Shown here in pieces: positions 44,617 to 45,235 of a stretch of DNA of 64,000 nt. The position numbers and the translations under genes were made by a program. Source of the DNA: the human T2T-CHM13v2.0 reference genome, Homo sapiens; NCBI GenBank assembly GCA_009914755.4, contig CP068257.2:24640001-24704000 (forward strand), written 5' to 3'. The notes below the pieces were generated by a model. The model saw only the letters and a list, made by a program, of their open reading frames with translations. It made no database searches and was not told the origin of the DNA. The first letter of the stretch is position 1; the number at the start of each line of letters is the position of its first letter.

Positions 44617-45235
44617 CAGGACTGGTGTGTTCCCCGTTGCAAAAAGCTTACATTCAGGTGAAGGAGAAAGCAAAATAAATAAATAAATAATTAATTAGAT
44701 AGCTACAAATGGTGGTAACTTTGTGAAATAAATTAACAAGAGAGTAAGACAGAGAATGATAGGGGAAGGTACCTCTTTTAGATGGGTGATGTGGAAAGAC
44801 CTCTCTGGTGATGTAGCTCCTTTATTTTCTTATTTTTGCATAAAATTTTTAGAGTGTGAGGCATCATCATGATTTCAGAGACATGAGGCATGTAACTTGG
44901 GACAAATACATGACTGTATTTGGTTGAAGATGTTTGTCATTTTTGCATTGTGCCCTATGGCTAAAATGTTCTGATTTTGATCATGAAACAAAATTCACCA
45001 CAGTTATGGTTCAATTGTCAAGGAAGAAAGAAATACTACATCACCAGAGAGGTCTTTCCACATCACCCATCTAAAAGAGGTACCCTCCTCTATCATTCTC
45101 TATCTTACTCTCTTGTTAATTTCTTTCACAAAGTTACCACGATTTGTAGCTATTTAATTAATTAATTATTTATTTATTTTGCTTTCTCCTTCACCCGAAC
45201 GTAAGCTTCTTGCAGCGGGGAACACACTAGTCCTG
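44617..45235. repeat. Near-palindromic inverted repeat: two 200-bp arms (44617-44816 and 45036-45235) at about 93% identity, separated by a 219-bp spacer. Candidate non-autonomous DNA-transposon (MITE-like) element or inverted duplication.
   Basis: Left arm caggactggtgtgttccccgttgcaaaaagcttacattcaggtgaaggagaaagcaaaataaataaataaataattaattagatagctacaaatggtggtaactttgtgaaataaattaacaagagagtaagacagagaatgataggggaaggtacctcttttagatgggtgatgtggaaagacctctctggtgatgtag. The reverse complement of the right arm is caggactagtgtgttccccgctgcaagaagcttacgttcgggtgaaggagaaagcaaaataaataaataattaattaattaaatagctacaaatcgtggtaactttgtgaaagaaattaacaagagagtaagatagagaatgatagaggagggtacctcttttagatgggtgatgtggaaagacctctctggtgatgtag. 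The 49 bp nearest the spacer on each arm are identical. Confidence 0.85.

What the first reader, a model, noticed from the sequence alone, without database searches (positions are those of the whole stretch)
44617..45235. 619-bp near-palindrome (200-bp inverted arms at about 93% identity, 219-bp spacer) unlike any repeat family I recognise
The arms at 44617-44816 and 45036-45235 are reverse complements with about 14 differences per 200 bp. The 49 bp nearest the spacer are identical. Each arm carries its own (AAAT)n/(TAAT)n microsatellite, and those are the most divergent stretches. The identity drops to background exactly at caggactggtgtg / cacactagtcctg. Such sharply delimited terminal inverted repeats around a short non-coding core are the architecture of a MITE-like non-autonomous DNA transposon. 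I see no obvious TSD (flanks are ...aaaatgct and ttgatagt...). The alternative is a local inverted duplication, which is a classic source of fragile and recombinogenic DNA. The size and stem quality (a roughly 200-bp stem) would also make a long hairpin RNA if transcribed, as in hpRNA or mirtron-like precursors. Arm divergence of about 7% is lower than expected for human DNA transposons (typically over 10% from consensus). That suggests either a younger event than DNA-transposon extinction in primates or concerted evolution of the two arms.
Basis: seen in the sequence. Interest (0 to 1): 0.72.

Follow-up and report, generated by a model that had tools for sequence, protein, structure and literature searches.

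The report
Inverted duplication of an old L2 fragment
The 619-bp near-palindrome is real, but its arms are two copies of a piece of an ancient LINE-2 (L2) retrotransposon tail, one in its original place and one copied backwards about 220 bp away, so it is an ordinary local inverted duplication and not a new mobile element.

Summary
Arms 44617-44816 and 45036-45235 are reverse complements, 200 nt, 12 mismatches (94%), no indels, 219-nt spacer, sharp edges, no target-site duplication.

The main interpretation (a MITE-like DNA transposon unlike any known repeat) does not hold. Both arms align to the 3' end of LINE L2. On the right side the L2 alignment runs past the arm's outer edge into the flank. 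The native flank adds about 14 bits, and none of 400 control flanks does as well. On the left side the alignment stops at the arm edge. So the "terminus" CAGGAC.../...GTCCTG is a breakpoint inside an L2, the right arm is the original, and the left arm is an inverted copy.

The arms are about 70% identical to the L2 consensus but 94% identical to each other. The copy was therefore made long after L2 inserted, roughly 15-50 Myr ago, by replication template switching or fold-back repair.

Most likely this is a neutral relic, and any hairpin-RNA role is untested. Copy number in the genome and the state in other primates could not be checked with these tools.

The parts
45036..45235 (+). Right arm. 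This is the in-place (parental) piece of an old L2 3' UTR, corresponding to positions about 145-357 of the 437-nt L2 3'-end consensus used here.
   Evidence: nhmmer hit 45032-45272 (+), E 1.5e-15, model 142-391. It is 68% identical to the consensus and runs on into the right flank as L2.
45236..45293 (+). Continuation of the same L2 element beyond the arm, i.e. the L2 3' tail (...CCTAGAGTCCAGCACAGTGCCTG...TGAATGAAG). It is present only on the right side.
   Evidence: The alignment reaches 45272 with high posterior probability and the envelope reaches 45293. The native flank raises the score to 48.9-50.6 bits, against 34.7 +/- 1.3 for 200 shuffled flanks and 34.6 +/- 1.7 for 200 random real 80-mers. 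None of the 400 controls reaches the native score.
44617..44816 (-). Left arm. This is the inverted copy of the L2 segment in the right arm. Its outer edge (44616|44617) is a new junction with unrelated DNA.
   Evidence: nhmmer hit 44817-44614 (-), E 7e-11, model 145-357, stops at the arm edge. The left flank adds no score (34.6-36.2 bits, within the controls). It is 94% identical to the right arm with no indels.
44817..45035 (.). 219-nt spacer, single copy in the window. Its orientation relative to the ancestral sequence is unresolved.
   Evidence: No other copy in the window. No inverted homology continues into it. There is a weak, non-robust minus-strand match to L2 positions 86-144 at 44872-44930. 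nhmmer finds nothing in it.
44672..44700 (-). (AAAT)n(TAAT)n tract of the left arm. It corresponds to the A/T-rich tract of the L2 3' UTR. Its mirror image is at 45151-45179.
   Evidence: TRF. In the alignment to L2 it falls on '...tatttatttgtttatttgtttatt...'. Same length in both arms, 2 substitutions.

Best explanation
An old, 5'-truncated L2 (LINE-2) 3' end lies on the + strand at about 45032-45293. Long after it had decayed to about 70% identity with its consensus, a 200-nt internal stretch of it (45036-45235) was copied in reverse-complement orientation to a site about 220 bp upstream. That produced the left arm (44617-44816).

The event was a single local DNA-synthesis error. Either the replicating strand switched to the opposite strand and back (Loytynoja and Goldman's four-point template-switch model, an event type that creates an inverted repeat), or a broken end folded back, primed on itself for about 200 nt and was rejoined. 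Since then both arms have drifted neutrally to 6% divergence.

The structure has no transposition machinery and, most likely, no function. Its consequences are those of any 200-bp, 94% inverted repeat with a 219-nt loop:
- a long imperfect double-stranded RNA if the region is transcribed, which would be a likely ADAR substrate;
- a modest potential for fold-back or inversion when the DNA is single-stranded.

Shown here: the repeat, the L2 identity of the arms, and the asymmetric continuation of L2 into the right flank only. Inferred: the mechanism, the age, and neutrality.
For: 1. Both arms align to the L2 3' end (E 1.5e-15 and 7e-11). The same query finds two independent old copies at 39354-39725 (E 7.8e-26) and 34338-34662 (E 8e-08), so it behaves as the consensus of a real interspersed family.
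2. The L2 alignment crosses the right arm's outer edge and continues to 45272 (envelope 45293). It stops at the left arm's outer edge. The native right flank adds about 14 bits, and 0 of 400 control flanks do as well.
3. The arms are 68-73% identical to the consensus but 94% identical to each other with no indels. The independent L2 copies in the window cannot even be aligned to the arms or to each other. The arms therefore share a recent common ancestor that was already a decayed L2.
4. With the consensus as outgroup, derived changes split about 5 in the left arm, 5 in the right arm and 2 ambiguous. That fits neutral drift of both copies.
5. No target-site duplication. Flanks and spacer are single copy in the window.
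6. The architecture (inverted copy, unduplicated spacer, sharp junctions) matches published template-switch and fold-back products (PMC5453318; PMC3907307).
7. 6% divergence between the arms argues against an assembly or cloning fold-back artefact, which would give near-identical arms.
Against: - The L2 consensus was written from memory, not taken from Dfam or Repbase. It is validated only indirectly, by its hits to other copies in the window.
- A memory-free test using the in-window copies as probes has no power.
- The flank extension is short (37-58 nt) and is not significant as a stand-alone hit (E about 6). Its weight comes from being collinear with the arm.
- No outgroup genome and no genome-wide copy count could be obtained (all returned nothing).
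- L2 homology on the + strand begins only 4 nt from the right arm's inner edge. Under the simplest model this is an unexplained coincidence.
- The termini CAG...CTG are typical of hAT and Tc1/mariner ends, but this is weak evidence.
Confidence: 0.8

Rival explanations
1. MITE-like non-autonomous DNA transposon. The 200-nt arms would be terminal inverted repeats recognised by a transposase, and the unit would have inserted here as a block.
For: Sharp symmetric ends, CAGG...CCTG termini, a short non-coding core and an overall size typical of MITEs.
Against: - The arms are L2 3'-UTR sequence, and L2 homology continues past the right 'terminus' into the flank.
- No target-site duplication of any length or motif: TA, TTAA, TWA, or 2-12 nt. 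At 3% decay per copy an 8-bp duplication should be nearly intact, yet only 3 of 8 positions match.
- No second copy of the arm in 64 kb apart from its partner.
- The arm divergence is too low for any primate DNA transposon (background knowledge: their activity ended about 37 Myr ago).
Confidence: 0.03
2. Two independent ancient L2 insertions in opposite orientation whose overlapping parts have been kept similar by gene conversion.
For: Closely spaced L2 pairs in opposite orientation are common and are a known source of hairpins (PMC6433296). The innermost 49 nt are identical.
Against: - A retrotransposed L2 keeps its 3' end, but the left copy lacks the last ~80 nt of L2.
- Both copies start at the same consensus position.
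- There are no indels over 200 nt, whereas independent copies in the window differ by many indels and cannot be aligned to each other.
- The clean 49-nt run is not statistically unusual.
- Conversion between 200-nt arms would be inefficient (background knowledge).
Confidence: 0.03
3. A functional hairpin-RNA locus (a young L2-derived miRNA or endo-siRNA precursor) that is retained because of its RNA product.
For: Many human L2-derived miRNAs come from the L2 3' end and from two nearby L2 pieces in opposite orientation (PMC6433296). The arms include the L2 region (...GAATGTAAGCT...) that I recall as homologous to the miR-28/-151 family. The predicted hairpin is very stable.
Against: - No Rfam family matches the unit, either at gathering score or at E <= 10.
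- A 200-bp stem with a 219-nt loop is not a Drosha substrate shape.
- The 12 arm differences are all uncompensated, as expected for neutral decay.
- There is no evidence that the locus is transcribed.
Confidence: 0.04
4. Assembly, cloning or sequencing artefact (fold-back chimera).
For: Inverted duplications are a known artefact class.
Against: The arms differ at 12 of 200 positions, with a transition-biased spectrum and changes on both arms. An artefact would give identical arms.
Confidence: 0.01

Closest known systems
LINE-2 (L2) 3'-end fragments, the ancient mammalian-wide retrotransposon relics (about 500,000 in the human genome; PMC6433296)
   Same: Both arms align over about 210 positions to the L2 3' UTR. 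The right arm continues into the L2 tail. The element is 5'-truncated like most L2 copies and about 30% diverged from consensus.
   Different: The left arm is not an independent retrotransposition product. It lacks the L2 3' end and is a 94% copy of its neighbour.
Short-range template-switch mutations (four-point model, event types that create an inverted repeat with or without an inverted spacer; Loytynoja and Goldman 2017, PMC5453318)
   Same: A nearby segment is copied once in reverse complement, giving a new inverted repeat with sharp junctions. The source stays in place.
   Different: [quoted passage not shown] Here the copied segment is 200 nt and lies 219 nt from its source, which is larger.
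Fold-back inverted duplications with an unduplicated spacer (Hermetz et al. 2014, PMC3907307)
   Same: [quoted passage not shown]
   Different: Those events are megabase-scale, have spacers of 0.8-70 kb and come with terminal deletions. This one is 200 nt, interstitial and fixed.
L2-derived miRNA hairpins formed by two nearby L2 pieces in opposite orientation (PMC6433296)
   Same: Two L2 3'-end pieces facing each other that can pair as RNA.
   Different: The stem is 200 bp and the loop 219 nt, not a ~70-nt precursor. There is no Rfam match. No expression data are available.
MITEs of the human genome (e.g. MADE1, and the MER-type hAT- and Tigger-derived elements)
   Same: Inverted-repeat architecture, small size, CAG...CTG ends.
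   Different: No target-site duplication. The arms are LINE-derived. The family homology crosses the supposed terminus. No other copies were seen.

Membership tests
MITE / non-autonomous DNA transposon | Target-site duplication flanking the element | tested here: not met
   No direct repeat of 2-12 nt at the edges or within 4 nt of them, and no TA, TTAA or TWA motif.
MITE / non-autonomous DNA transposon | The ends of the element are the ends of the family's homology | tested here: not met
   The L2 alignment runs from the right arm into the flank. The native flank adds about 14 bits, and 0 of 400 controls match it.
MITE / non-autonomous DNA transposon | Many dispersed copies with the same termini | not testable with these tools
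   No other copy in the 64-kb window. The public collections available hold no DNA of this locus, so absence there says nothing.
LINE L2 3'-end fragment | Significant collinear similarity to the L2 3' consensus | tested here: met
   nhmmer E 1.5e-15 (right) and 7e-11 (left). A Dfam/RepeatMasker run is still needed for the formal name and subfamily.
LINE L2 3'-end fragment | The copy extends to the element's 3' end, as expected of a retrotransposed LINE | tested here: met
   Met for the right copy (to 45272-45293). Not met for the left copy, which stops at consensus position about 357 of 437. Hence the left copy is a secondary duplicate.
Local inverted duplication (template switch / fold-back) | One copy is continuous with its ancestral surroundings and the other has new junctions | tested here: met
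   Right arm plus right flank form one L2. The outer junction of the left arm abuts unrelated DNA. The inner junctions are unresolved.
Local inverted duplication (template switch / fold-back) | Outgroup species carry the source but not the inverted copy | not testable with these tools
   No primate genomes are available in the collections.
Local inverted duplication (template switch / fold-back) | Microhomology at the switch points | tested here: inconclusive
   Any microhomology would be absorbed into the arm ends. Nothing is recognisable beyond them.
L2-derived miRNA precursor | Match to a described miRNA family, or a precursor-sized hairpin | tested here: not met
   No Rfam hit in 44617-45235 at gathering score or at E <= 10. 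The stem is 200 bp and the loop 219 nt.
Fragile palindromes (PATRR-type) and large arm-converting palindromes (X/Y ampliconic) | Near-perfect arms with little or no spacer (PATRR), or multi-kb arms above 99% identity | tested here: not met
   200-nt arms, 94% identity, 219-nt spacer. The defining features are from background knowledge.

The most novel reading that the evidence does not exclude
The inverted L2 pair lies in a transcribed region and gives a 200-bp double-stranded RNA. That RNA is processed into small RNAs carrying L2 3'-end sequence (the region that yields the miR-28/-151-type L2 miRNAs), so a primate-age template-switch event created a young regulator of transcripts that carry L2 in their 3' UTRs.
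Probability: 0.03. Interest if true: 0.45.

Novelty: new member of a known kind. Interest (0 to 1): 0.12.

Why it matters
It matters little in itself. It is one more small inverted duplication in repeat-rich primate DNA, built from an L2 fragment that standard repeat annotation should already label.

It has some use as a worked example. A sharply bounded long inverted repeat without a target-site duplication should first be tested for being a breakpoint inside an older repeat, before it is called a new MITE. It is also a comparatively large (200-nt) instance of the template-switch or fold-back class of mutations that create hairpins in one step.

Practical consequences are limited to possible double-stranded RNA or A-to-I editing if the region is transcribed, and a low-level potential for inversion or fold-back.

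Tried and rejected
1. Looking for other copies or the orthologous locus elsewhere. Exact-pattern scans of viral contigs, metagenome contigs and prokaryote genome contigs all returned nothing. So did an exact look-up of the 62-aa ORF in the right arm and a word-based protein search with the 66-aa open frame. The unique spacer is also absent, so these collections simply do not contain this locus. The negatives say nothing about copy number.

2. Rfam, at gathering score over the whole window and at E <= 10 around the unit. Nothing in the unit, only Alu-related sub-threshold hits 400 bp downstream.

3. A memory-free test of L2 continuity, using the two other in-window L2 copies singly and as a two-sequence profile. 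There is no power: ancient copies match the consensus but not each other.

4. Full-text search for strings of the L2 3' consensus, to find a citable printed sequence. No paper found.

5. Extra inverted homology inside the spacer, and uneven spread of the mismatches as a sign of gene conversion. Neither was found.

6. L2 homology inside the spacer. There is a weak minus-strand match to L2 positions 86-144 at 44872-44930. Between 0.9% and 11% of random window pieces score as well, depending on gap costs, and nhmmer sees nothing. There is also a 9/10 plus-strand match at 45010-45019. Neither is robust, so the spacer orientation is left open.

7. Pfam on the palindrome's ORF. No family, so no coding capacity.

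8. Finding an exon in the window, to reach orthologous primate loci through an annotated gene.

Full report
**Observation.** The region was read directly and scanned for repeats.
- Arms 44617-44816 and 45036-45235 are reverse complements of 200 nt, 219 nt apart. The blastn E-value within the window is 8e-86.
- Base by base there are 12 differences (9 transitions, 3 transversions) and no indels, so identity is 94.0% (95% CI for the difference 3.1-10.2%; Kimura distance 0.063).
- Complementarity falls to background immediately outside both ends of the arms.
With 12 random differences, a clean run that long somewhere in the arm is expected 38% of the time.
- The (AAAT)n/(TAAT)n tracts exist. They have the same length in both arms and hold only 2 of the 12 differences, so they are not the most divergent part.
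- As RNA the unit folds into one hairpin (-368 kcal/mol, z = -32), which follows from the repeat.
- Twelve Alu 5' heads in the window show that this is primate DNA.

**What the arms are.** Reading the arms, I recognised the 3' end of LINE L2. It gives four hits:

| Window position | Strand | E-value | Consensus positions |
|---|---|---|---|
| 39725-39354 | - | 7.8e-26 | 29-433 |
| 45032-45272 | + | 1.5e-15 | 142-391 |
| 44817-44614 | - | 7e-11 | 145-357 |
| 34662-34338 | - | 8e-08 | 67-432 |

The first and last hits are unrelated loci. They do not detectably match each other or the arms, yet both match the query. That is how the consensus of an ancient interspersed family behaves, and it validates the remembered sequence as such. 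The name 'L2' rests on my background knowledge and should be confirmed with Dfam. The arms are 68-73% identical to this consensus, in line with an element said to have spread 100-300 Myr ago and to be mostly 5'-truncated (PMC6433296).

**The decisive asymmetry.**
- On the right side the L2 alignment does not stop at the arm's outer edge (45235). It continues with high posterior probability through ...CCTAGAGTCCAGCACAGTGCCTG to 45272, with an envelope to 45293, where TGAATGAAG resembles the L2 terminus.
- On the left side it ends at the arm edge.
- I quantified this with constructs:

| Construct | nhmmer score (bits) |
|---|---|
| Right arm + its native 80-nt flank | 48.9-50.6 |
| Right arm + 200 shuffled flanks | 34.7 +/- 1.3 (max 40.0) |
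| Right arm + 200 random real 80-mers from the window | 34.6 +/- 1.7 (max 42.7) |
| Right arm + reverse-complemented left flank | 34.6-36.2 |

- The left arm gains the same ~14-15 bits if the right flank is grafted onto it.
- As a stand-alone hit the flank is not significant (E about 6). Its weight comes from being collinear with the arm, and none of the 400 controls equals it.
- The sharp 'terminus' CAGGACTGGTGTG / CACACTAGTCCTG is therefore a breakpoint inside an L2 element. The right arm is the L2 in its original place, and the left arm is a reverse-complement copy of L2 positions about 145-357.

**Why this is a duplication and not two L2 insertions or a transposon.**
- The arms are about 30% away from the consensus but 6% from each other, with no indels. 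Independent copies in the window differ by many indels. The arms therefore descend from one already decayed copy.
- A retrotransposed L2 would carry the 3' end, and the left arm lacks it.
- With the consensus as outgroup, the 12 differences split about 5 derived in the left arm, 5 in the right arm and 2 ambiguous. Both copies have drifted.
- There is no target-site duplication of 2-12 nt, nor TA, TTAA or TWA, at or within 4 nt of the edges. At about 3% decay per copy an 8-bp duplication should be almost intact, yet only 3 of 8 positions match.
- Flanks and spacer are single copy in the window, and no second copy of the arm exists in 64 kb.
- The 62-aa ORF in the unit has no Pfam match, and no Rfam family matches the unit.
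- Twelve transition-biased differences spread over both arms rule out a fold-back assembly artefact.

**Mechanism (inferred).** A single local synthesis error fits best.
- In the four-point template-switch model a replicating strand copies a nearby segment in reverse complement and returns. Event type '1-4-3-2' creates an inverted repeat, and type '1-3-4-2' creates one with an inverted spacer. These were 31% and 23% of high-confidence human-chimp events (PMC5453318).
- Fold-back priming of a resected broken end gives the same product, with the loop as an unduplicated spacer (PMC3907307).
- The present event (200 nt copied, 219-nt spacer) is larger than typical short template switches and far smaller than clinical fold-back duplications.

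**Age (inferred).** A distance of 0.063 (CI 0.032-0.110) is about the human-Old World monkey level of divergence (about 6-7%, background knowledge). That gives very roughly 15-50 Myr if there has been no gene conversion.

**An unresolved detail.**
- Plus-strand L2 homology begins at 45032, only 4 nt from the right arm's inner edge, and cannot be followed into the spacer.
- On the minus strand the spacer shows a weak collinear match to L2 positions 86-144 at 44872-44930. Between 0.9% and 11% of random window pieces score as well, depending on gap costs.
- If that match is real, the spacer was turned round together with the left arm, by an inverted-spacer template switch or a staggered-break inversion. 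That would explain the coincidence. The evidence is too weak to decide, but an outgroup genome would settle it at once.

**Consequences.**
- In yeast, raising the spacer of an Alu inverted repeat from 12 to 200 bp lowers gross rearrangements about 20-fold, and lowering identity to 94% lowers them about 15-fold. Such repeats regain activity when the DNA is single-stranded (PMC10164571). Fragility here should therefore be low but not zero.
- If transcribed, the unit would form a 200-bp imperfect duplex. By background knowledge this is a likely ADAR substrate and a poor Drosha substrate.
- L2 3' ends in opposite orientation are a documented source of miRNA hairpins (PMC6433296). Nothing here indicates that this one is used.

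**Limits.** Genome-wide copy number, orthologous loci, expression and population variation could not be examined.
- All scans of the available collections for arm or spacer sequence returned nothing. These collections hold essentially no DNA of this locus, so the negatives carry no weight.
- The gene context of the window is unknown. No exon was recognised among the long ORFs.

**Verdict.** The structure is real. This is an ordinary product of known mutational processes acting on a known repeat, so interest is low.

Noticed in passing
window 39349-39746 (-) and 34334-34686 (-): Two further old L2 3'-end fragments, found with the same consensus (E 7.8e-26 and 8e-08). They are too diverged to match each other or the palindrome arms directly.
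   Followed up: partly
window 45635-45919 (+): An Alu element about 400 bp to the right of the palindrome. It gives sub-threshold Rfam hits to Metazoa_SRP and to the mir-1268 and mir-3135 families, which I recall as Alu-derived. Twelve Alu 5' heads occur across the window.
   Followed up: no
window 24000-30000 (+), ORF 25342-25701: An A-rich stretch (AT skew +0.27 to +0.35) containing an ORF with L1 ORF1 domains (Tnp_22_dsRBD, E 9.6e-24). This is an L1 element in sense orientation. A similar skew at 54-58 kb, and ORFs at 46352-47212 (-) and 57490-58466 (+), look like L1 ORF2 tails by eye, but three of them tested (46352-46663, 46844-47212, 57978-58466) gave no Pfam hit.
   Followed up: partly
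window 29475-29971: A complex (CATATA/CACA)-type minisatellite of about 500 bp with nested periods of 12, 22, 28, 44, 56 and 76 nt. It produces long spurious ORFs on both strands.
   Followed up: partly
window 53054-53113: An (AAAT)n microsatellite of about 60 bp. It is the only other place in the window that matches the arms' A/T tract.
   Followed up: no
window 44872-44930 (-) and 45010-45019 (+), inside the spacer: Weak matches to L2 positions 86-144 (minus strand) and 138-147 (plus strand). These positions lie immediately upstream of the part of L2 held in the arms. This may be a trace of how the spacer was arranged before the duplication, but it is not statistically robust.
   Followed up: partly
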